This document shows positions 2,221 through 54,176 of a stretch of DNA of 64,000 bases, piece after piece. Position 1 is the first letter of the stretch. Each line of letters begins with the position of its first letter. The DNA comes from Candidatus Marinacidobacterales bacterium (lineage in GTDB: Bacteria; Acidobacteriota; Vicinamibacteria; Marinacidobacterales; SMYC01), in assembly GCA_965224085.1 (NCBI GenBank), contig CBDCYI010000009.1, positions 512,001 through 576,000 on the forward strand, given 5' to 3'. A program made the position numbers and the translations under genes. The notes beneath the pieces were generated by a model. It ran no database searches, had not been told where the DNA came from, and saw nothing but the letters and a program-made list of their open reading frames with translations.

Positions 2221-2553
2221 TCTAAACTCCTTGGAACATCTTTGACCCTGGTAGTGCCTACGCATTCCCACTGGGCAGGATGTTCATGAATTGATACTCT
2301 TGCACATATTCACCCGCGACGAACTTGAAATCCCTTTCTCCGTACTGCGTCACGAACAGCACATTCTTCCCTGAACTATCACAGTAGGTCCAACTAATAA
2401 AGCTTTTTCCCGGGCCAGCGGCGCTTTCATGGAACAGGCCCGCACCACTCTCCATCAGTCGATAGCTCCGCCCATCGTGGGTCAGGGTTTTGGGTGGATC
2501 TTCATGTCGGATGGTGTGTTCAATGACCTCCTCGGCAATCTGACAGATAGCAA

Positions 2554-3894
2554 CATATCTGGACTCCTCAATCATATCTGGACTCCTCAATCAACACCTT
2601 TCTTATCTGGACTCCTCAATCAACACCTTTCTCAAAAAAGTCTTCCTCAGAGCTGCTCGTCCAAATCGGTGACGAGTGGGTCAGACTGCAAACATATCTA
2701 CGGCCTCAGTGAGGAGCGTCTTGGGTGCTCCGGGCCATGACGGAAAATCCGCGCGCGAGGAGCCAATCACTTTGAGCGACCTCAATCAGCCTTGGAAGGG
2801 AAGAAGGAAAACACGAAAGTGGAGCCTGAGCGACCTCTGAGGGCCAGTGTTGCTATCGGCTTGACCCCGCGCCGGCTCCGGCACGGTACGCCGTCCGACC
2901 GGTACGCCGTCAGTTGGATGGGTATCGTCGCAGCCTCTGTTGGAAGGGAAGAAGGAAAACACGAAAGTGGAGCCTCTATGCGGCCGCGGGCACCGACTGG
3001 AATTCACTCTCGCGGGTGGAGACGGCCCAGACTATCCGGGCGAGTTTGTTGGCGACATATCTGGACTCCTCAATCAACACCTTTCTTATCTGGACTCCTC
3101 AATCAACACCTTTCTCAAAAAAGTCTTCCTCAGAGCTGCTCGTCCAAATCGGTGACGAGTGGGTCAGACTGCAAACATATCTACGGCCTCAGTGAGGAGC
3201 GTCTTGGGTGCTCCGGGCCATGACGGAAAATCCGCGCGCGAGGAGCCAATCACTTTGAGCGACCTCTGAGGGCCAGTGTTGCTATCGGCTTGACCCCGCG
3301 CCGGTCCGACCGGTACGCCATCAGTTGGATGGGTATCGTCGCAGCCTCTGTTGGAAGGGAAGAAGGAAAACACGAAAGTGGAGCCTCTATGCGGCCGCGG
3401 GCACCGACTGGAATTCACTCTCGCGGGTGGAGACGGCCCAGACTATCCGGGCGAGTTTGTTGGCGACATATCTGGACTCCTCAATCGCGGCTTTGTTCTG
3501 ACTCCCCGCGAGCGGTGGACCTTTCTCGTCGCCTCAGGCGCGGAGCTGCTCGTCCGGGCTCTTGCGACGTGGCCGCTCGGAGCACGGCAAACGTCCGCCC
3601 TGCAGTGAGGAGCGTACGGAGGTAGGAGTCGCCACGCTTGGGATGCGCCCGAGGCGGCGAATGTCACCACTGGAGTTCTCTTTGGGAACGAGGCCGAGGT
3701 AACTCGAGAGCGGCGTCCCGATGGGAAGCGGCGCAGATCCCCAACGAAGCCGACGATGGCGGTCGCGGTCAGAAGTCCGATGCCGGGAATGGTGAGAAGT
3801 CGTTGCACCTCAGGAAGCTGCTTGGCGAGCGCCTTGAGCTCGTGCTCGATGCCAGCGCACTTGTCCTTGAGCTCTCGAATCTCGGAGCACGCAT
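2554..3894 (-). repeat. tandem partial copies of the IS110 right end and transposase 3' end
   Basis: The (CA)TATCTGGACTCCTCAATC terminus recurs at ~2554, 2574, 2605, 3056, 3087, 3467 and 3895. The ~300-bp non-coding end is present in two extra copies, plus transposase fragments. Confidence 0.85.
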
Positions 3895-3924
3895 CATATC
3901 TGGACTCCTCAATCAACACCTTTC

Positions 3925-4196
3925 TCAAAAAAGTCTTCCTCAGAGCTGCTCGTCCAAATCGGTGACGAGTGGGTCAGACTGCAAACATATCTACGGCCTC
4001 AGTGAGGAGCGTCTTGGGTGCTCCGGGCCATGACGGAAAATCCGCGCGCGAGGAGCCAATCACTTTGAGCGACCTCTGAGGGCCAGTGTTGCTATCGGCT
4101 TGACCCCGCGCCGGTCCGACCGGTACGCCATCAGTTGGATGGGTATCGTCGCAGCCTCTGTTGGAAGGGAAGAAGGAAAACACGAAAGTGGAGCCT
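3925..4196 (-). ncRNA. candidate bridge/seek RNA of the IS1111-type element
   Basis: Non-coding region downstream of the transposase carrying segments that match the target (4085-4096, 4061-4066) and the donor junction (3986-3992, 4030-4036). Boundaries are approximate. Confidence 0.7.
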
Positions 4197-5231
4197 CTAT
4201 GCGGCCGCGGGCACCGACTGGAATTCACTCTCGCGGGTGGAGACGGCCCAGACTATCCGGGCGAGTTTGTTGGCGACAGCAATCGCGGCTTTGTTGTGTC
4301 CCCGCGAGCGGTGGACCTTCCGCGCCCAGGCGCGGAGCTTGTCGGGCGGGCTCTTGCTGACGTTGGCCGCTCGGAGCACGGCGCGTCCGCCCTGCGTGAG
4401 GAGCGTACGGAGGTAGGAGTCGCCACGCTTGGTGATGCGCCCGAGGCGGCGAATGTCACCACTGGAGTTCTCTTTGGGAACGAGGCCGAGGTAACTCGAG
4501 AAGCGGCGTCCCGATGGGAAGCGGCGCAGATCCCCAACGAAGCCGACGATGGCGGTCGCGGTCAGAAGTCCGATGCCGGGAATGGTGAGAAGTCGTTGCA
4601 CCTCAGGAAGCTGCTTGGCGAGCGCCTTGAGCTCGTGCTCGATGCCAGCGCACTTGTCCTTGAGCTCTCGAATCTCGGAGCACGCATCACGCAGGTGCGG
4701 ACGGAGCACGTCGGGCAAATCAGAATCAGCGTCTTCGACGAGCTCGGAGATGGCGGGCACGACGAAGTGAGCGCCCTTGGGGATGAAGAGTCCGAGCTCG
4801 CGCAGGATCCCGCGTACGGCATTGATGCGTGCGGTCCGTGTGGAGAGCCATCCTGAGCGTAGGCGATGGAGCGCGGCGAGGGTGTGCTGGCGCACGGACT
4901 TGATGGGCACCGAAAGAATCTCCTCGTTCCGGTAAGCCTCGAGCAAAGCTTTGGTGTCCGCGCGGTCGTTCTTGCTCCCGCGTCGATACGGCCTTACGAG
5001 GTGAGGTGGGAGCAGGACGACGTCGTGTCCCAACCGTCGCAACGTCCTTGCCCAAAAGTGAGCCGAGCCGCAGGCTTCGAGAAGCACGGTGGCAGCGCTC
5101 TGTTTCGCAAAAAACGACACCAACTTGGGTCGACTCACACGGAGTTGCTTGGACACTTTCCCCGCTTCGCGCGAGATGGCAATCTCGAAGACGTTCTTTG
5201 CAAGATCCACAGCGATCGTCGTATCTTTCAT
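4197..5231 (-). CDS. IS110-family DEDD recombinase/transposase
   Basis: IAVDLAKNVF, LEACGSAHFW, KND, TIPGIG, SYLGLVPKENSSG, GRITKRGD, ANKLARI motifs; GGAGGAG RBS. Confidence 0.95.
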   Translation of the reverse strand: MKDTTIAVDLAKNVFEIAISREAGKVSKQLRVSRPKLVSFFAKQSAATVLLEACGSAHFWARTLRRLGHDVVLLPPHLVRPYRRGSKNDRADTKALLEAYRNEEILSVPIKSVRQHTLAALHRLRSGWLSTRTARINAVRGILRELGLFIPKGAHFVVPAISELVEDADSDLPDVLRPHLRDACSEIRELKDKCAGIEHELKALAKQLPEVQRLLTIPGIGLLTATAIVGFVGDLRRFPSGRRFSSYLGLVPKENSSGDIRRLGRITKRGDSYLRTLLTQGGRAVLRAANVSKSPPDKLRAWARKVHRSRGHNKAAIAVANKLARIVWAVSTRESEFQSVPAAA

Positions 5232-5599
5232 TCGGACTCCTCCTTTTTCGATGCGTTCTTTCGACTGACTTTGGCACATCGATGCCGTCTATGTCAGCGG
5301 AGGAGTCCATCCCATCACTTTCTGTCAGCGTCCAGGAAATCTCGCCGTCACTATCAGCCCGCTCCAGGTAGCCGACCTTGTCGGAGGTTTCGATTACCCA
5401 TTCCTTAGTCTCGAATCCAGAGTAGTCGTAGGTGTTATACCCTGTGACCTCCCATGTCTTCATATCGTAGTCAACGAGGTATCCCACTTTCATGGCGCCC
5501 AGTTTATAGTCCACTAGCGAGTCGGATTCCCCATCGTCGGACGCTCCGCCAAACCATTTTCCCAATACTATCATTCATTTTCCATCGGAAAGCATCGGA

Positions 5600-10704: not shown

Positions 10705-11939
<1,235 letters not shown>

Positions 11940-35785: not shown

Positions 35786-36295
35786 CCTGACCTGGTCGAT
35801 GACCGCCTGGGTCTTCTCGATGGCATCGTCCACCGAGGAGAGGATGGCGGCAATCTCGCGCTGCTCGGTCGAAGGGGGAAACGGAATTTCCAACCCACAA
35901 AGATCAGCCTTGTTCACAGCAGCGAAGGTGCTGCCCTGGGAAACGCGGACAAGGTCAGATACCTTCCACCGAAGCGCATGCCACAAGAACGGAACTTCGA
36001 CGCCGGTCGCCGTTATTGCGGAGAGCCCTCTCCCAATGCATAGTGGTTTGTCCGCCAAGTTCAAAGCTCCAACCGGTGCTCGAACACTCAGGAGGATGTC
36101 ACTCGGCTGAGCTTGCTTTTGGGGCTTGGTACAGAACTTCACGGGCAGTGGGTTTCGAAGCCCGAACTCAGCGTTTCCCTGAATAAACGGAAGTCCATTT
36201 CCGTCTTCGTTTACAGTGCGCGACGGAGGCGATTGTCCCATTTTGATAGTGGCAACAGTTCCCAGGCTCGCTGTAGCCCATTCGACGCTACTCAT
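35786..36295 (-). pseudogene. hsdS: type I R-M HsdS N-terminal half
   Basis: MGQSPPS, SVRAPVG, IGRGL, GSTF, PPSTEQREIAAILSSVDDAIE; the second TRD is missing. Confidence 0.85.
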
Positions 36296-38117
36296 ATCCG
36301 CACTCTGCCAGATACCGATTCATCCTCGTTTCGGCCACTGTGCGCTCCTTTTCCAGTTCCCTCAGCTTCCGCACCGCCTGCGCCACGTCGATCCGCTCCT
36401 CTTCTTCTGACGTGTCCACGTAGCGGCTGATGTTAAGGTTCCTTTCGTTCTTCTCGATCTCGGCAAGCGGAACGATTTGTGCATACTTCTCCACGTCGGC
36501 GTAAGCGTGGAATGTGCCAGAGATGTGCTCGATATCCTGGTCGCGCAGGCGGTTCTGGTTGCTCCCCTCTTCGAACTCGCCGGACGCGTCGATGAACAGC
36601 ACTTTGCCCTTCCTTGCCGCCAGCTTGTTCCGATTCAACACCAGGATGGACGCCGGGATGCCAGTGCCGTAGAAGAGGTTCGGAGCCAGACCGATGACCG
36701 CCTCGAAGAGATCCTCCTCCAGCAAGCCCTGGCGGATCTTCCCCTCCGCATTGCCGCGGAACAGAGCGCCGTGCGGCATCACGACGCCGAGTCGGCCCAA
36801 AGTGTTCAGCACCGCCACCATGTGCTGGACGAACGCCAGATCGCCCTTCGTCTTCGGCGGCACGCCGAACCGGAACCGCCCGTAGCCATCGTTCTCGGCC
36901 ACGTCGCGGCCCCACTCGTCGAGGCTGAACGGCGGATTGGCGATCACCCGGTCATACAGCAGAAGCTCTCCTTCATCCACGAGCTTCGGGTCCCGAATCG
37001 TGTCGCCCTTCTCGATTCGGGCGTCCGGCAGCCCGTGTAGCAGCATGTTCATCTTGCAAATGGCCCAGGTGCTCAGATTCTTCTCCTGGCCGTGCAGCGT
37101 TAGGTTGCGCGGGTTGCCACCTTTGCGCTCAATGTAATGGGCGCACTCGATCAACATGCCGCCGGAACCGGCCGTCGGGTCGCAGATACGCATCCGTTCG
37201 GTGGGGGCCAGCAGCTCGACGATGAGTTTAACCACCATCCGCGGCGTGTAGAACTCGCCGCCTTTCTTGCCCGCGTCGTCGGCGAACTTCTCGATCAGAT
37301 ACTCGTAGGCGCGACCAAGAAGATCGGGCTCGGCCATGCGGTCGTTGCGGAGGGAAACCTGGGAGAAGTGCTGCACCAGGCGCGCCAGCACGGTGTCGCG
37401 GTTTCGGGCGTCGCCGAGCTTGTGCTCATCGTTGTAGTCGATACCGGCAAGCACCCCTTCCAGTGCACTGTTTTGTTCCTCTAGCGCGACATACGCCTTG
37501 TTCAGCGTCTCCCCGATGTTGGTCGCCCGTTTTTGGATCGTGCCCCACCGCGCCCGGTCCGGTACGAAGAACTCGTGCTCGTCCGGGTCTCTCCATGCCA
37601 CCGTCTCGGAGAAACCCTTAGCGATGAGCTTTTCCGCTTCCTCCTCGAAGCGGTCCGATAGCCGTTTCAGAAAGAGCAGACCGAAGATGTAGGTCTTGTA
37701 GTCGCTGCTGTCGATGGAGCCGCGCAGGATGTCTGCGGCGGACCAGAGATACTGCTCGAGCTGCGCGACGCTCAGCTCTTCACTCCGCGGTTCTGGCGCC
37801 TCTGCCACGAAACGGGTTGGCGCGGGCACGTTCCCGGTGTTGTTCTTCGACGCAGCGGCCGGTCGGATAAGACGGGCTACGAGATCCTCCTTTTTCCTGC
37901 CGGAATCATCGAGGTCGAACGTTCGACACAGCTCCTTCAGGCGCTCTCTAGAGAGGTCTTGCAGAATCTCATAGAGCCGCGCCTTCCGCGAGCGGGCAAG
38001 CGTATCAACGAGTTGCGGCTTGACGCGGCGATCCGCAACCGCCAGCTCATAGAAGTCGATGCTGGCGCGCAGCTCGTTCGCTGTCAGCTCGGCGAGAATT
38101 GCGTGTTTTGTTGGCAT
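36288..38117 (-). CDS. hsdM: type I R-M methyltransferase with N-terminal helical extension
   Basis: LWSAADILRG, GEFYTP, DPTAGSGG, ANPPF motifs; GGAG before the ATG at 38117. Confidence 0.93.
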   Translation of the reverse strand: MPTKHAILAELTANELRASIDFYELAVADRRVKPQLVDTLARSRKARLYEILQDLSRERLKELCRTFDLDDSGRKKEDLVARLIRPAAASKNNTGNVPAPTRFVAEAPEPRSEELSVAQLEQYLWSAADILRGSIDSSDYKTYIFGLLFLKRLSDRFEEEAEKLIAKGFSETVAWRDPDEHEFFVPDRARWGTIQKRATNIGETLNKAYVALEEQNSALEGVLAGIDYNDEHKLGDARNRDTVLARLVQHFSQVSLRNDRMAEPDLLGRAYEYLIEKFADDAGKKGGEFYTPRMVVKLIVELLAPTERMRICDPTAGSGGMLIECAHYIERKGGNPRNLTLHGQEKNLSTWAICKMNMLLHGLPDARIEKGDTIRDPKLVDEGELLLYDRVIANPPFSLDEWGRDVAENDGYGRFRFGVPPKTKGDLAFVQHMVAVLNTLGRLGVVMPHGALFRGNAEGKIRQGLLEEDLFEAVIGLAPNLFYGTGIPASILVLNRNKLAARKGKVLFIDASGEFEEGSNQNRLRDQDIEHISGTFHAYADVEKYAQIVPLAEIEKNERNLNISRYVDTSEEEERIDVAQAVRKLRELEKERTVAETRMNRYLAECGYE

Positions 38118-39561
38118 CTCCGTATCACTCGTGGATCCACTTGCCGTGGTGGCAGCCGGAGTGGCCTTAGCCAGCGTGATCCTCGTCAGTGCTCGTGGGA
38201 GGCTACCACGAGGGCGCGCTGTGGTTTTCGGAAATTCTAGCCACCTGAGTTTTTGTCTCAGAATCGAGGACTTCGTCAAGTCTGCACTGGTAATTGTGAT
38301 GAGTAGCCGCCGCCACACTCGTCTGCCCGGCCCCCCGTGACGACGAGATCGGCTACGGCAAACCTCTGGTCTGCCATAGTTCTCTGAACAGAGCGCGGCA
38401 CATTCTCAACCGAAGCCCGTCGTGTCCGAAAATGCGAACGGAGTCGAAATTTCGAATCCTGGAGGCGTTGTGAAGCAGGATCGTGTGCATGCCACCAACG
38501 CTATCGGGCATCACCCTGAAAGACCAGGTTTTCTGCACCGGACGGAATTTATAGGAGGGACAGCGCTGCGCGAGCGGCATAGGTTGCGAGCGAACGCGAT
38601 GGCGTCCAGAACAATAGACCGGATATTCGAAAACAGTCGCACGAGCGAGCCTCTCCACGTTCCTAAGACGCCGGTGGCGTCGTCGGGTCGACCGGCACGA
38701 AGCAGCCGAGCATGGCAGGTCTAAACCGCGCAGTCAACGCCGGATCGACTTTTTGCGGAGCACAGGCATCGTCGGGTCGACCGGTACAGAGAAACCGATC
38801 GTGGCAGGTCTAAACCGCGTAATCAACGCTGGATCGACTTTTTGCGGAGCACAACACCGACGACCACGGCGGCTACGTCGGGCTACCGAACCACGAGACG
38901 GTCCGCCTGTGCCTTCTATTTATTCATCCGCGCGCACCAAACTTGATTAATCTCGGGTCTGCCAGCACCATGCCGGCATGATTTCGTCGTTGGTGTGCTG
39001 GTGGCTTTTGCCGCCATTTCTGGCAGCTGCGTTACGAGTAAGCTAGTCCCGGCCTCCGAGGAACAGACGCGGCACGTACCAGAACATCAGCGCGATGGAG
39101 GCAAAGAGCTGCATCGCCGCGCCAACGTACCGGTTGTCCCTTCTATAAATTCCGTCCGGTGCAGAAATCCTGGTCTTTCAGGGTGATGCCCGATAGCGTT
39201 GGTGGCATGCACACGATCCTGCTTCACGGCGTTGTTTCGGCGAGCCAGTTGCGTCTGTCCGCGCCCGCCTCTCTCGTCGGCGCAAACGCTCCCCGTCGTG
39301 TCAAAAAATACAAACGAACTCAAGAGCGGCACGCCGGGACGTTTGGTGCTTGCGCTGCTTACTGTTGGTGATATGTACGCATCCCTTTGCAAAAGAGACG
39401 CTTACGCTCCATTTAGCGCGCAGCGAAGGTCACGAGCGCTATTTTGGCTGTAACTTAATGCACCGTAAAGTCTTAGCGTCATCTCACCAACACTTAATGG
39501 CGGAAGCACCGGACACGACGAGTTTGCCAATCTCGTACAGATCAAGTTTATGGAAGGGACA

Positions 39562-40146
39562 GGCGGTGAGCGAAGCCTCGACGCATTGGGGCTCCGTGCT
39601 GGAGGGACTCCAGGCTCGAGGACTCCGGGCTCCCAAGCTAGTGATCAGCGACGGCCACAAGGGGCTGACGAAAGCGCTGGAGAAGTGGCCGGGGTGCCGG
39701 TTGCAGCGATGTACCGAGCACAAGCGCGCCAACTTGCTCGAACATTGCCCGGCGCACGCACGCCGTGAGCTCCGGCGTGACTACAACCGGATCGTCTACG
39801 CCAAGAACGGGATCGATGCTCGCAAAGCCTATGACGAGCTCGTCGCCAAGTGGACGCCTCTCGCGCCGGCCGTCGTCCGAAGCCTAGAGGAGGCCGGTAA
39901 TCAGCTGCTGACCTTCTACGAATTCCCTCGTGCCATGTGGAAATCGATTCGAACGACCAATGCTCTGGAGAATCTCAACCGCGAGTTTCGAACGCCGGAC
40001 GAAAACCCAAGCGTCGTTCTCCAGCGAGGAGTCTGCGGTCGCTTTGCTGTTTGGGCTTATCGCCTCTGGCCAGATTCAACTACGACGCATCGACGGCTAC
40101 CAACGTCTGAGCGAGGTTCTCGAACACGCGGAGGTTGCCGCCTGAT
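39562..40146 (+). pseudogene. IS256-family transposase C-terminal fragment, frameshifted
   Basis: LVISDGHKGL, QRCTEHK, IRTTNALENLNREF. Confidence 0.85.
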
Positions 40147-40409
40147 ATGATACTCTGATGACGGAGTGGAGGGCGCCGTTCTTTTTCCACGGACCTCGGG
40201 ACACATCCTCATAGCGTTTGGGATCTGAGACTAAGCACCTTGGGGACGAACTCTCTCTTGGCAGTTCCGGGCTACCCAGGTCTGTCGAGTCTTCAGGAGG
40301 AAGCTGTCTTGGGAGCCGAGTTGAATCGAGTATTTCAACAACGGTCATCGCCTTAGATTTTTCACATTCAAACCGGTTAACGGGTCGTTCACATGCTCTG
40401 GAGGGAATT

Positions 40410-41069: not shown

Positions 41070-41509
41070 CGGAAGCATTGTATTCGTCCCGTTCCGGGGT
41101 TGTCCCAGTGGACGCCCCCGGGTAGGGGTGGAGCCGCGGCCCGGGGCTTTCCCAGACCACTGAGTAATGCGGGTTGTGCCTTCTATTTATTCATCCGCGC
41201 GCACCGAACTTGATTAGTCTCCGGTCTGCCGGCCGAGGCCATTTACTCGACGATCGCCTTTGCACTCGTTTCCTTAGGCCTGGGCGCGGAAGGTCCACCG
41301 CTCGCGGGGACACAACAAAGCCGCGATTGCTGTCGCCAACAAACTCGCCCGGATAGTCTGGGCCGTCTCCCGTCCTGTGCCAAAACTCGGTTCTTTTGAA
41401 ATAGGCTGCAAATCAGCAACTTAGTGTCTGTGTTTGCGACATCCCCAAGGGCCGTAGGCCGGCGCTTGGCCATGTCGTGGCTGTCCGAGTTTTGGCACAG
41501 GACGGGGTC

Positions 41510-42355
41510 GGTCAACCCGATTCTGCTTAACTAGTACCTGTCCAGAAACACCATAACTTGTGGTGTACGAGAGGCCTATCGAAGATGTGGGTATTATACG
41601 TTTTCAGTCGGCACCTCGTAGGCTCGGAAGCGAATGAAAATCTTGGACGAAACGAGAGGCGAATCGTCAGCAATCCATGGCTATAAACGCAGTAAGAGCA
41701 ATCATTATTATCGTAATAGGTGCCTTGACAGGTTGCAGGTGATGATGGAACTCCATACGTAGGATTTGAAAGAAGGCAATGAGCGCCATGTGCATCGGTC
41801 GAGACCAAAGACTCGTTTCAAGAACGAAATGACGCCTTCGATTCCGCAGCGAAATCGCCGTAGGCGTTGATAGACCCAGGAACTCTTGACCATATGGGCG
41901 CCGGAAGGTCCACCGCTCGCCGGGCCATCGAGGCACAACAAATGGCCGCGAGTTTGCTGTCGCCAACAAACTCGCCCGGATAGTCTGTTCTTCGGATCGA
42001 AACGACCTTTTCCTCCGCAGGCACACGCTCTTCATCAATCACTCTACGCCGAGTTTGGTTGTGACTTTTTCGGTGAGGACGAGAAAGTGCTTAAAATCCG
42101 TGGCGATCTTCTCCGCACTCGCTCGCTTCACCGGCTCGGTGTCGTCCAAAACGTTGAGCGGAGCGATAGGTTTCTTCCGACACCTTGTAAATAGACGCGA
42201 GGCTTCGCGTTTAGAACTCCCAGCAACTTAGTGTCAGTTGTGTTTGCGACATCCCCAAGGGCCGTAGGCCGGCGCTTGGCCATGTCGTGGCTGTCCGAGT
42301 TTTGGCACAGGACGGGGTCGATAGGTGAACTGATTCAGGTCAACCCGATTCTGCT
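41510..42355 (-). repeat. garbled, internally deleted copy of the adjacent ISNCY and IS110 pieces
   Basis: Blocks identical to 42340-43300 and 41285-41360, joined through deletions. Confidence 0.7.
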
Positions 42356-49986: not shown

Positions 49987-50602
49987 TCATCCGATCATCT
50001 CGCTATCAGGCATCCCGAGCGCCGTCATGGTGTTGAGAATCTTGCACCCGATCCTTGCCTCGACTCTCTGTGCCGCCAACCCTCTCGCTCGCATTGCTGA
50101 GCCCACGATAGCCTTGTAGCGATGGAACGTTGTCTCGACTTTGCTCCGTTTGCTGTAGCCCGATTCTGTGTGCCACTTTCGTTTGCCGAGCCGAGCTTGT
50201 GCTGCAATGTTGCGATTGCGCTGTCGGCTGCTCGCCGGCCCCGATGCGAGCTGGGCGCCCTTGCGCGGCGGTATCAGCACCCTCGGCGAGCGATGAGCGC
50301 TGTGATTCTCGATTGCCTCATAGACGCCGCCGGCGTCGTATGCGGTGCCAGCTCTGGCCGATGAGATGGGACTGTCGATCTGTCCGACAAGCGATGCAAC
50401 CCGCGATGAATCGCGGGCTCTTTTGCTCGTCAGCTCGCCGGCAACGACTTCGCCAGTCTGCTCGTCGACACACAGATGGAGCTTGCGATAGTCCCTGCTA
50501 TTTGGTGCTCTGCGCAGCTGGCCGGCGTGGACAGCGAGACCGCTGCTGTCGATCAAGATGTGCAACGGCGTCTTCTGCTTGTCTTGGTAGAAGGGGACCT
50601 TA
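49987..50602 (-). pseudogene. IS5-family transposase C-terminal part
   Basis: IDSSGL, RKLHL, AYD, SGYSKRSKVET...RYK. Confidence 0.8.
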
Positions 50603-50716
50603 CCCCGTCCTGTGCCAAAACTCGGCCCTTTTGAAATAGACCATAAATCAGCAGCTTCGTGTCTGTGTTTGCGACCGAGCCAAGGGCCGTAGGCTTTACA
50701 ATCGTCTGGCCCGAGG

Positions 50717-51000
50717 GTGCGGAAGCGAGTTTCGAGCAGGAGTTCAACTCCCTCGATGCGCAGCGAGAGGCCTGCGCCGCGTATGTCGCGAGCCACAAGG
50801 CAGAAGGCTGAGTGCTGCTGCCAACCGTCTACGAGGACGGAGGGATCTCGGGAGGAACCCTGGAGCGCCCGGGCCTGCAGCGCTTGCTCGCCGACATCGA
50901 TGCTGGTCTCGCCGAGCAGGTGGTGATCTACAAGGTCGACCGGCTGACCCGCTGTCTTGCCGACTTTGCGAAGCTCGTCGAACGGCTCGAGATGCTCGGC
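50717..51000 (+). pseudogene. serine recombinase N-terminal fragment with a nonsense codon
   Basis: EQEFNSLDAQREAC...G*...YEDGGISGGTLERPGLQRLL...YKVDRLTR. Confidence 0.8.
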
Positions 51001-51733
51001 CCAACCGCGCAGATCTGCTCGCAAAATTCTCAAGATCCGTGATTTCTAAGAAGGATCGGTCAATTGACCCCATATATTTTCGTGGGCTTACGGCTCGGGC
51101 GAATCGATCCTGGCACAAAAGGCACAAAACCCCCGTATGGGGCAGGACGCGGGTTCCGACCTGTGTTTCGAGGTTTCCAGCCGAGACCGGATAGCACCAG
51201 ACTGCGCCATCCGCCATCCAGTCCGGCCAATTGTGGCACTGCAGAGACGGATGAGATTTTCCGCGCGGTTGGTGGGGTTTTGCAGGGGTAGGTGGCACCA
51301 GAGACGCGCTAGAAGGGCTGAAGAGGCCTCATTTTCGGCATTCGTCTCTAATCGCGATTTTCGAGTGCCACGTTTGCGCCAAATAGGGGGGCGGGCGCTG
51401 AACGGGCCGTGCGGCAGCGGAAAAGAGGCCACCCGAGAGGCCCAGAATCGAGGCCGGGACTACCGCAGCGTAGCTGCCCTAGCACGTTCTGGTCCAGGTG
51501 CGGCCCGGGCCTCCTTTATGTCCATCTTTGCCCAGGACCTGGATCCAGGTCTTCGCCCAGGCAGCGTGACATCCCGTTTCTGGACGGTGTTTCCCTGCGC
51601 ATACGGGGAACCCGAATCGCCGGCCGTAACGTCACCCTCCCAGGCACGTGATCTGAAAAAATCGGCCAGAAGCAACCGATCATGGCAGGTCCAAAACACG
51701 CAATCAACGCTGGATCGACTTTTTGCGGAGCAC

Positions 51734-53745: not shown

Positions 53746-54176
53746 TCAACATAGGGCCTCCTCGCTTCCACTCCCGTCCTGTGCCAAAACTCGGCCCCGT
53801 CCTGTCCAAAAACACAAACGAACTCAAGACTGGCGCGCCGGGCCGTCGCCGAGTTTCATCTATCATTATGATGGAGAGCGCAACCATCAAGGGCTTGGCA
53901 ACGCGTTTGTGTTTTTGGACACGACGGGGTTCACTTGTGTTACGGCCCGGTGACTCGCTCACCATCCTCAAGATGGCTTTGTCAGTCAGCTTCATCCGTC
54001 TCGTTTCCTCCACGAACGTGACTCAAGCTACGGGGCGCTAACTTTTTCCCCGGTGGGACTCTCTCCCACTGAACATGCCAGCCTTCGCTGGACGCACTCC
54101 TGTCCCAAAATACAAACGAACCCTCGAAGACTCTATCCACCAAGGGCAGAGTTTTGGCACAGGACGCGTGGCAGGG

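What the first reader, a model, noticed from the sequence alone, without database searches (positions are those of the whole stretch)
2540..5328. IS1111-type element whose non-coding end carries visible guides for its own target and donor
Seen: the reconstructed empty site (minus strand) is GAAAG-TG-TTGCTATC. The element's 3' non-coding region contains AGTGTTGCTATC (4085-4096), a 12-nt exact match spanning the core and one flank. CACTTT (4061-4066) matches the other flank in the opposite orientation. A second pair, CATATCT (3986-3992) and ATGACGG (4030-4036), matches the predicted circle junction CCAGATA-TG-ATGGG with one G:T wobble. Established: IS110/IS1111 recombinases use bridge/seek RNAs with target- and donor-binding loops. 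Inference: this is a complete recombinase plus guide RNA with a TG core whose four guide segments can be read from sequence, so it is a candidate new programmable recombinase.
Basis: partly seen in the sequence, partly recalled or inferred. Interest (0 to 1): 0.82.

Follow-up and report, generated by a model that had tools for sequence, protein, structure and literature searches.

The report
IS1111-type insertion sequence with seekRNA

Summary
Public contigs contain the predicted empty site. The unit is a 1421-bp IS1111-family element on the minus strand (5317->3897, TGATGGG...CCAGATA). It has an intact 344-aa DEDD/Ser transposase, a 10-bp subterminal inverted repeat and a roughly 155-180-nt RNA gene in the 3' non-coding region.

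That RNA is homologous to the non-coding regions of ISPa25, IS5075 and ISEc11. Comparison with about 90 orthologues supports seven helices.

- Segment complementary to the top strand (4085-4093): tracks the right flank.
- Segment matching the left flank (4061-4066): tracks the left flank.
- AGAUAUG (3986-3992): tracks the last 5 nt of the right end, identical in 62 of 70 loci across five sequence states.
- Fourth segment (4030-4036): it is the 3' strand of a covarying helix. Its supposed core-pairing base follows its RNA partner, not the donor DNA.

The interval 2540-5328 is not one element. It holds one full copy plus two partial right-end modules, so it carries three RNA genes. The internal joints start with TG in 8 of 11 joint types.

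Verdict: a new member of a known kind. It is a plausible programmable recombinase but not a new class.

The parts
5318..5574 (-). 5' part of the interrupted DUF4178 gene. It is the left flank and ends ...CTGACAGAAAG.
   Evidence: Pfam PF13785 profile positions 1-53. Contigs join it to 2553 in 4 of 4 runs.
5299..5317 (-). Left end TGATGGGATGGACTCCTCC. The subterminal inverted-repeat arm lies at 5300-5309.
   Evidence: 11 exact copies in the genome, every one preceded by (A/G)AGTG. Inverted repeat I1, 10 nt, 100% complementary.
4197..5231 (-). Transposase/recombinase, 344 aa plus stop codon.
   Evidence: PF01548 and PF02371. NF033542 at 306.8 bits against a cut-off of 140. D9, E52, D89, D92 and the S-G of GLVPKENSSG align with the IS621 DEDD and Ser-Gly residues.
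3976..4157 (-). Long seekRNA / bridge RNA gene, copy 1. The covariance model matches 3979-4135. A candidate outer helix pairs 4149-4157 with 3976-3984.
   Evidence: R1 143.2 bits. Seven helices supported on 90 distinct sequences. Outer helix found at a constant distance in many orthologues.
4085..4093 (-). Target segment T. RNA AGCAACACU is complementary to top strand AGTGTTGCT.
   Evidence: Cognate site match of at least 7 of 8 in 17 of 25 loci, against 37 of 560 non-cognate pairings. Lies on the 5' side of the internal loop.
4061..4066 (-). Target segment B. RNA AAAGUG is identical to the left flank plus TG.
   Evidence: The three strongest signals in an unbiased mutual-information scan link left-flank positions -3 to -1 to these RNA columns. 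Identity is 0.83-0.89.
4030..4036 (-). It is the 3' strand of helix 1 and pairs with 4128-4134.
   Evidence: Helix 1 is 93.1% paired and 4 of 7 pairs show compensatory change. Copy 3 in this same locus carries the compensating UGACGG.
3986..3992 (-). Donor segment AGAUAUG, identical to the right-end terminus AGATA plus TG.
   Evidence: The 5 nt equal the last 5 nt of the right end in 62 of 70 loci, across five states.
3897..3910 (-). Right end of the full copy, GAGGAGTCCAGATA. The inverted-repeat arm lies at 3901-3910.
3087..3896 (-). Partial module 2, covering element positions 629-1421. It carries the 3' 40% of the transposase gene, RNA copy 2 (3169-3325) and a right end. It joins the first right end at TGATGCG. 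An 18-nt right-end fragment is inserted at 3469-3486.
   Evidence: 95.7% identity over 814 nt. RNA copy scores 143.2 bits.
3058..3086 (-). 29-nt duplicate of the right-end terminus.
2604..3057 (-). Partial module 3, covering element positions 1040-1421 with 72 extra nt. It holds RNA copy 3 (2686-2914), which has 18-nt and 56-nt insertions in two hairpin loops.
   Evidence: RNA copy scores 110.5 bits.
2556..2603 (-). Two further right-end pieces, 29 nt and 19 nt. The last one joins at TGATTGAGG.
2258..2555 (-). 3' part of the DUF4178 gene. It is the right flank and starts TG-TTGCTATCTGTCAG.
   Evidence: Pfam PF13785 profile positions 59-135. Joints seen.

Best explanation
The locus holds a recently active IS1111-family insertion sequence from a sponge-associated Acidobacteriota genome. 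Its relatives are named Candidatus Marinacidobacterales. The DEDD/Ser recombinase is followed by a gene for a structured RNA, the 'long seekRNA' or bridge RNA.

How the RNA reads DNA.
- One arm of the RNA is an internal loop. Its 5' strand pairs with the top strand of core plus right target. Its 3' strand pairs with the bottom strand of left target plus core.
- A single-stranded stretch just 3' of a second hairpin arm repeats the right-end terminus plus core. It most likely pairs with the bottom strand of the donor.
- I found no clear RNA reader for the left end. The left end may be read by protein through the subterminal inverted repeat.

Target choice.
- The element normally inserts at AAG|TG TTGCTA inside a repeated motif.
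- Here it hit a DUF4178 gene allele that happens to match both target segments perfectly.

Origin of the extra modules.
- They arose when the recombinase joined a right end to TG-containing pseudo-sites inside the element.

Shown versus inferred.
- Shown: the anatomy, homology, covariation, the empty site and the bias in joint sequences.
- Inferred: transcription, RNA-protein binding, RNA-DNA pairing and current activity.
For: Protein.
- Pfam and NCBIfam assign the IS110 family of RNA-guided transposases.
- Catalytic residues are conserved.
- The closest named relatives are ISPa25 (47%), ISEc11 (39%) and IS5075 (35%), each over 97-99% of the protein's length.

Copies.
- Nine full or nearly full copies share 98.4-100% identity.
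- The genome holds 17 RNA gene copies.

RNA.
- Model R1 gave 94 matches over the 100 loci searched.
- It also finds ISPa25 (84.4 bits), IS5075 (48.3 bits) and ISEc11 (32.6 bits).
- 92.1% of cells are paired, against 81.0% in shuffles. 26 pairs change on both sides. No shuffle out of 500 reached any of the observed values.

Guide segments.
- T lies 5' of B and their matches overlap in the target, as published for IS1111 seekRNAs.

Empty site.
- Both the TG and the CA allele are seen.

Internal joints.
- 8 of 11 joint types start with TG, where TG makes up 5.2% of dinucleotide positions (p about 8e-9).
- 6 of those 8 read TGA (p about 0.005).
Against: - Thermodynamic folding alone is weak. The z-scores are -1.78 and -2.05, and 5 of 100 and 8 of 200 shuffles fold at least as well.
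- The alignment used for pair counts was fitted to my own structure.
- Covariation of the donor segment could in principle be a DNA-level repeat rather than RNA pairing.
- Contigs from RNA libraries cover parts of the element, but DNA carry-over is not excluded, so they do not show transcription.
- No consensus promoter or terminator was found.
- No Rfam family matched.
- In most orthologues the guides specify CG at the core while the left junction reads TG. I did not resolve this.
- One search reports no depth over 2744-3076 and 3410-3853, which hold most of the composite-specific joints.
Confidence: 0.88

Rival explanations
1. On this view CCGUCAU (4030-4036) is a real right-donor guide that pairs with A|TGATGG of the circle junction, perhaps after helix 1 opens.
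For: - Geometry: the segment sits directly 5' of the second hairpin arm and AGAUAUG sits directly 3' of it. This mirrors T-hairpin-B in the target arm.
- Its first base tends to complement left-end position 6. With A at that position it is U in 10 and C in 7 combinations. With G it is U in 1 and C in 28. Fisher p = 4e-5, with no correction for phylogeny.
- 6 of 8 TG pseudo-sites read TGA.
- Durrant et al. state that many IS1111 RNAs carry potential donor-binding bases in a multi-loop (passage read).
Against: - Helix 1 covaries internally. Column pair 4/147 is GC in 49 and CG in 29 sequences. Pair 6/145 is UA 67, CG 8, GC 3 and AU 2.
- The base that should pair with the invariant G of the donor TG is G in about a third of the family.
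- Five lineages differ in nt 3-6 of the left end: TGTTGAA-type, TGGTGAG, TGATTGG, TGATCGA and TGATGTA. None shows a complementary change in this strand. Four give non-pairs and one a G-U pair.
- No RNA column scores above MI 0.55 with left-end position 7.
Confidence: 0.25
2. The extra right-end modules come from full circles inserting into pseudo-targets inside a resident copy. Homologous deletion between the duplicated left parts then followed. On this view they do not come from recombination at pseudo-left-ends.
For: - The final structure would be identical.
- Some pseudo-sites resemble the right target half. TGTCGCCA matches 4 of 6 and TGATGCGT 3 of 6, against a mean of 1.33 of 6 over all TG sites.
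Against: - No joint of the form internal sequence|left end was seen. There are 0 among the 11 left ends in this genome.
- There are also none among the left-end junctions listed for the two related genomes.
- That model predicts such joints for mid-element sites.
- The third base is A, as in the left end, in 6 of 8. It is T, as in the right target half, in only 1.
Confidence: 0.3
3. The composite at 2556-3896 is an assembly artefact of a repeated element.
For: - Repeats commonly break or scramble assemblies.
- The third RNA copy is scrambled by two insertions.
Against: - Comparable right-end arrays occur at three other loci of this genome.
- They also occur in two related genomes deposited as single-chromosome records, for example L003 with four RNA copies.
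- The TG bias of the joints is not what mis-assembly would produce.
Confidence: 0.1
4. The sequence matches are coincidental and target choice is determined by protein alone.
For: None beyond the short length of the individual matches.
Against: - The 12-mer is expected 0 times by chance.
- Guide and flank covary across dozens of loci.
- Experiments on relatives are published. I read sections 9 and 10 of PMC11187229.
Confidence: 0.02

Closest known systems
ISEc11 and its seekRNA (IS1111 family; Siddiquee et al. 2024, PMC11187229)
   Same: - The layout is transposase followed by a 3' non-coding RNA.
- The top-strand match lies 5' of the bottom-strand match, and the two overlap in the target.
- The published long form is 154 nt; my model has 155 positions.
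- Model R1 hits the ISEc11 non-coding region at 32.6 bits, E 3e-7.
   Different: - The protein is only 39% identical.
- The target differs.
- Nothing here has been tested at the bench.
- In ISEc11 the short 82-nt RNA sufficed. The donor-matching segment that I support by covariation lies outside the stretch equivalent to that short RNA.
ISPa25 (IS1111 family)
   Same: - It is the closest named relative, at 47.4% identity over 99% of the protein.
- It gives the strongest RNA model hit among named elements, 84.4 bits.
- It shares the same GCCGAU...AUUGGC frame around the guides.
   Different: - ISPa25 sits between qacEdelta1 and an OXA-10-family cassette on a Pseudomonas plasmid.
- It is reported to target the same site as ISKpn4.
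- The present element targets AAG|TGTTGCTA in a different repeat.
- Many of the orthologues have right flanks ending GTTAGGC or GTTAGCC. These resemble the integron cassette core site, a consensus I recall rather than tested.
IS621 bridge RNA (IS110 group; Durrant 2024, Hiraizumi 2024)
   Same: - DEDD plus Ser recombinase.
- Dinucleotide core.
- An RNA that reads both strands of the target through an internal loop.
- An RNA segment that matches the donor.
   Different: - In IS621 the RNA is at the left end. Here it is at the right end.
- The order of the strand matches is reversed.
- The subterminal inverted repeat is long.
- The donor-matching bases lie in a multi-branch junction, and I found no clear left-end partner.
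- Protein similarity is detectable only in the C-terminal domain, E about 7e-8.
ISPpu9 / MITEPpu9 (Pares-Guillen et al. 2025, PMC12288879)
   Same: - Separate RNA-bearing right-end modules, including one linked to a 3' transposase fragment.
- Tandem duplications of the module.
- Recombination keyed to the core dinucleotide at unexpected sites.
   Different: - In ISPpu9 the modules have their own copies of both end boxes, and the small RNA is not needed for transposition.
- Here the modules start at unrelated TG pseudo-sites, and the RNA is the guide RNA itself.
IS4321 / IS5075
   Same: - IS1111-family members that insert at a fixed position and orientation in a repeated sequence belonging to other mobile DNA. 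I take this from a reference title seen.
- The RNA model hits IS5075 at 48.3 bits.
   Different: - Identity is 34.5%.
- The repeat targeted here is not a Tn3-family end. No Tn3 transposase is present in this genome.

Membership tests
IS110 family (DEDD RNA-guided transposases) | N-terminal DEDD/RuvC-like domain plus C-terminal Tnp domain | tested here: met
   PF01548 (E 3.7e-11) and PF02371 (E 9.7e-26). NF033542 scores 306.8 bits against a cut-off of 140.
IS110 family (DEDD RNA-guided transposases) | Catalytic D, E, D, D and the Ser-Gly of the Tnp domain | tested here: met
   D9, E52, D89, D92, S256 and G258 are invariant in 7 orthologues. They align with the IS621 motif residues, whose roles are described in passages read. 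The N-terminal alignment is low-scoring.
IS1111 group | Subterminal inverted repeats of 7-17 bp | tested here: met
   10 nt, 100% complementary, at 3901-3910 and 5300-5309. They lie 4 nt and 8 nt inside the termini.
IS1111 group | The longer non-coding region lies downstream of the transposase gene | tested here: met
   About 300 nt lie 3' of the stop codon (4196-3897). About 86 nt lie 5' of the start codon (5317-5232).
IS1111 group | Transposase of 330-350 aa with a GL-P----S(T)G motif | tested here: met
   344 aa, with GLVPKENSSG in the translation.
IS1111 seekRNA | The RNA from the non-coding region carries a top-strand match 5' of a bottom-strand match, and the two overlap in the target | tested here: met
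IS1111 seekRNA | The RNA is homologous to experimentally defined seekRNAs | tested here: met
IS1111 seekRNA | The RNA is transcribed, binds the transposase and is required for transposition | not testable with these tools
   Only contigs from RNA libraries are available. They do not show transcription.
Bridge RNA with two programmable loops (IS621 type) | Target-binding internal loop whose two strands read opposite DNA strands | tested here: met
   The loop lies between helix 4 and helix 5. Both strands covary with the flanks.
Bridge RNA with two programmable loops (IS621 type) | Donor-binding loop with both a left-donor and a right-donor guide | tested here: inconclusive
   The left-donor (right-end) segment is supported, 62 of 70. 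The right-donor candidate is a helix strand and tracks the left end only weakly.

The most novel reading that the evidence does not exclude
Helix 1 could be a built-in mimic of the donor's left end. Its 5' strand (UGAUGG) copies the first six bases of the left end, and its 3' strand is complementary to them. The RNA could then switch between a closed RNA-RNA state and an open state in which the same strand reads the left end. In addition, the recombinase's use of TG(A) pseudo-left-ends would spin off and amplify guide-RNA-only modules that act in trans.
Probability: 0.12. Interest if true: 0.6.

Novelty: new member of a known kind. Interest (0 to 1): 0.38.

Why it matters
The element adds a well-documented natural example to the RNA-guided recombinases.
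- It has an intact enzyme, a 155-nt RNA scaffold with covariation-backed structure, and about 90 naturally reprogrammed relatives. These could guide the choice of scaffold positions for engineering.
- Two details are of modest specialist interest. The right end is read by a covarying RNA segment while the left end has no clear RNA reader. The recombinase also leaves right-end arrays, joined at the core dinucleotide, that multiply the guide RNA gene.
- The two alleles at the DUF4178 site differ only at the core. The occupied copy carries TG at both junctions, so the pair suggests a ready-made specificity test.

None of this changes the known picture of the family.

Tried and rejected
Ideas tested and dropped.
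- Tn3-type target. The repeated target motif GGTGCTTCCGCCATYAAGTGTTG (47 hits at up to 4 mismatches) looked like a Tn3-family terminal repeat. The genome has no Tn3 transposase. Similarity downstream of the motif usually ends after 55-130 nt. The nature of the motif is unresolved.
- Integron array. The motif occurs in both orientations, so I did not pursue this. No integrase search was run.
- Other left-end guides. A CCCAUC upstream of helix 1 complements GATGGG of the left end, but it is absent from the other clades. Two alternative pairing registers for the helix 1 strand fail whenever left-end position 7 is A.
- Outer helix by a blind test. The best cognate helix averages 6.39 bp against 6.22 bp for non-cognate pairs. 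Support therefore rests only on its constant position and a few compensatory changes.

Searches that gave nothing.
- Rfam: no relevant family.
- Promoter and terminator scan: nothing useful.

Limits of the read data.
- No depth is reported over 2744-3076 or 3410-3853 in any of the four runs. Repeats break short-read contigs, so this says nothing either way about the composite.
- RNA-library contigs cover 4176-4394 and 4701-4922 (X15) and 3905-4023 and other parts (X16). They do not show transcription.

An early scoring mistake.
- My first T-guide scoring ignored matches that begin left of the junction, so it understated the signal. It was replaced.

What I could not see or did not look for.
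- Supplementary files and figures of the papers were not seen. Siddiquee Supplementary Figs 6-9 and Durrant Extended Data Fig. 10c may already show donor-binding bases for IS1111 RNAs.
- I ran one literature search and none aimed at right-end arrays. I make no claim that they are unpublished.
Full report
WHAT IS THERE

The window is contig C9, 512001-576000, of a 6.87-Mb genome in 12 contigs. The element lies on the minus strand.

The ORF at 4197-5231 encodes a 344-aa protein.
- It carries PF01548 and PF02371.
- It matches NCBIfam NF033542, 'IS110 family RNA-guided transposase', at 306.8 bits against a cut-off of 140.
- D9, E52, D89, D92 and the S-G of GLVPKENSSG are invariant in seven orthologues.
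- They align with the IS621 DEDD and Ser-Gly residues. The roles of those residues are described in passages I read.

The element interrupts a DUF4178 gene. Its two halves are 5319-5574 and 2258-2554.

The unit element is 1421 bp, from 5317 down to 3897, and reads TGATGGG...CCAGATA. It has a perfect 10-bp subterminal inverted repeat at 5300-5309 and 3901-3910.

The genome holds nine full or nearly full copies at 98.4-100% identity. It has 11 exact left-end motifs and 21 exact right-end motifs.

THE OBSERVATION

All quoted strings are present at the stated coordinates. The 12-mer AGTGTTGCTATC occurs three times against 0 expected.

The empty site was recovered from public contigs of sponge metagenome runs.
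- One contig in X1 joins 2553 to 5316.
- All four runs laid contain a contig that joins 2553 to 5318 with TG between them on the + strand. That is the allele GAAAG-CA-TTGCTATC.
- The occupied site in the window has TG at both junctions.
- The CA allele mismatches both target segments at two positions.
- The TG empty form could be the pre-insertion allele or a product of precise excision. I cannot tell which.

FLANKS OF OTHER COPIES

- All 11 left ends in the genome are preceded by (A/G)AGTG: AAGTG in 8 and GAGTG in 3.
- External right flanks mostly begin TGTTGCT.
- The usual target is therefore cAAG|TG TTGCTAc.
- This site lies inside a motif, GGTGCTTCCGCCATCAAGTG..., that recurs 47 times at up to 4 mismatches. 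I could not establish what the motif is.
In the RNA those bases pair with GAU, which belongs to an invariant helix. The effective guide is about 9-10 nt.

THE RNA

Single-sequence folding places the first pair of segments opposite each other across an internal loop. The energy signal is weak, with z-scores of -1.78 and -2.05.

I collected 60 related genome loci and 80 metagenome loci. Transposase identity to the query ranges from 45% to 99%.

I built a covariance model from 14 sequences using my own structure.
- It gave 94 matches over the 100 loci searched.
- On 90 distinct sequences, 92.1% of cells pair, against 81.0% in shuffles.
- 26 of 39 pairs change on both sides, and all seven helices are supported.
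- One caveat applies to all of these counts: the alignment was fitted to the model.
- A candidate outer helix, 4149-4157 with 3976-3984, recurs at a constant distance in many orthologues. It is not distinguished by a blind test.

The overall shape agrees with the remark in Durrant et al. that IS1111 RNAs carry donor-binding bases in a multi-loop (passage read).

THE FOUR SEGMENTS

1. T (AGCAACACU, 4093-4085). It lies in the 5' strand of the loop between helices 4 and 5. On reconstructed sites the cognate match is at least 7 of 8 in 17 of 25 loci, against 37 of 560 non-cognate pairings. Examples are listed.

2. B (AAAGUG, 4066-4061). It lies in the 3' strand of the same loop.
- An unbiased scan of left-end and flank positions against all RNA columns put the three flank bases before the element at the top. 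Mutual information is 1.41, 1.05 and 0.71, with identity 0.83-0.89.
- The simpler match count is weaker: at least 6 of 7 in 5 of 25 cognate loci against 27 of 552 non-cognate pairings.
- T lies 5' of B and the two overlap. This is the published IS1111 arrangement (section 9 of PMC11187229).

3. AGAUAUG (3992-3986). It follows the second hairpin arm. Its five non-core bases equal the last five bases of the right end in 62 of 70 loci. The states are AGATA 38, ATATA 15, ATACC 5, ATACA 3 and AGACA 1. Of the other eight loci, five match at 2 of 5 or fewer and are probably false right-end calls.

4. CCGUCAU (4036-4030). This is the 3' strand of helix 1.
- Column pair 4/147 is GC in 49 and CG in 29 sequences. 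Pair 6/145 is UA 67, CG 8, GC 3 and AU 2. Pair 8/143 is GC 66 and AU 12. Overall the helix is 93.1% paired.
- The third RNA copy in this same locus carries UGACGG. This turns the U-G pair of copies 1 and 2 into C-G.
- The base that would pair with the invariant G of the donor TG follows its RNA partner instead.
- Five lineages with altered left-end positions 3-6 show no complementary change in this strand. Four give non-pairs and one a G-U pair.
- In its favour, its first base correlates with left-end position 6 (Fisher p = 4e-5, uncorrected for phylogeny). Its position also mirrors T in the other arm.
- I give a real guide role about one chance in four.

AN UNRESOLVED DETAIL

In most orthologues B, T and the donor segment specify CG at the core. 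The left junction nevertheless reads TG and the right junction CG. In the present element all of them read TG or UG.

THE COMPOSITE

In transposase orientation the interval reads as follows:
- left flank;
- element positions 1-1421;
- positions 629-1421, at 3896-3087;
- a 29-nt right-end piece;
- positions 1040-1421 with 72 extra nt, at 3057-2604;
- right-end pieces of 29 nt and 19 nt;
- right flank.

It holds three RNA genes. Two are identical and the third carries insertions in two hairpin loops.

Across this genome and two relatives I found 11 kinds of joint between a right end and internal element sequence.
- Eight start with TG, two with CG and one with AG.
- TG makes up 5.2% of dinucleotide positions in the element, so p is about 8e-9.
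- Six of the eight read TGA, like the left end.
- No joint between internal sequence and a left end was seen.

I infer that the recombinase joins a right end to TG pseudo-sites that act as substitute left ends. This could happen between sister copies or through minicircles. ISPpu9 offers precedents: RNA-bearing modules, tandem duplicates and recombination at unexpected core dinucleotides (sections 15 and 18 of PMC12288879).

Other rearrangements at these loci use plain microhomology. One search reports no depth over most of the composite-specific joints. The composite therefore rests on the assembly and on parallels elsewhere.

COMPARISON AND NOVELTY

[quoted passage not shown] The second donor guide of an IS621-style loop is the only inconclusive one. 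The closest named element is ISPa25.

This is a new member of a known kind. Activity and programmability are plausible but untested.

PAPERS: WHAT I SAW

- The search listing.
- PMC11187229: outline and sections 6, 9 and 10.
- PMC11208160: passages.
- PMC11208158: passages.
- PMC12288879: outline, section 15 and part 1 of section 18.
- PMC13626964: reference-list passages only.
- No figures or supplements.

Noticed in passing
window 53935-54071 (-): Group II intron domains D1-D4 (RF02003, 120 bits against a gathering score of 49).
   Followed up: no
window 10983-11099 (+): ALIL pseudoknot (RF01497, 96.4 bits). As I recall, this is the frameshift element of IS3-family insertion sequences.
   Followed up: no
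window 16614, 39510 and 49871, and 47 sites genome-wide: The motif GGTGCTTCCGCCATYAAGTGTTG recurs in both orientations. Upstream sequence is unique. Downstream sequence falls into a few families that are alike for only 55-130 nt. Two contigs end in it. It is the usual landing site of this element. Its nature is unknown, and no Tn3 transposase is present in the genome.
   Followed up: partly
window 41278-41370 and 41895-41987: Two short fragments of this element's transposase 3' end, one 100% and one 84% identical. The first abuts another repeat ending ...CCGAGTTTTGGCACAGGAC. The same repeat truncates an RNA copy at C5:1892510.
   Followed up: partly
window 5234-5243 with 5299-5308: The left-end repeat arm GGACTCCTCC is perfectly complementary to GGAGGAGTCC, which overlaps the ribosome-binding site just before the transposase start codon. 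A hairpin between them could hide the site in read-through transcripts.
   Followed up: no
window 2553/5318 joint, runs X1, X7, X15 and X16: The DUF4178 gene has two alleles at the insertion point, AGC ATT (Ser-Ile) and AGT GTT (Ser-Val). The occupied copy in the window carries TG at both junctions.
   Followed up: yes
loci L023-L170, right flanks: Most orthologues sit next to ...TGTTAGGC, TGTTAGCC or TGTTCGGC. Their left flanks read GTCGGCTGCAG or GTCAGCTTCAT. These resemble integron attC core sites (GTTRRRY), a consensus I recall rather than tested. ISPa25 lies between cassettes on a Pseudomonas plasmid.
   Followed up: partly
window 36288-38318 (-), 39350-40150 (+), 49987-51033 (-): A type I restriction-modification methylase (HsdM), a truncated Mutator-family (IS256-like) transposase and a DDE_Tnp_1 transposase. 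The window is rich in mobile DNA.
   Followed up: no
G000 C4:1232181-1232960, C5:1163360-1163743, C9:653201-653860: Three other copies of the element carry right-end arrays or scrambled duplications. One is a threefold 46-nt repeat of the right end.
   Followed up: partly
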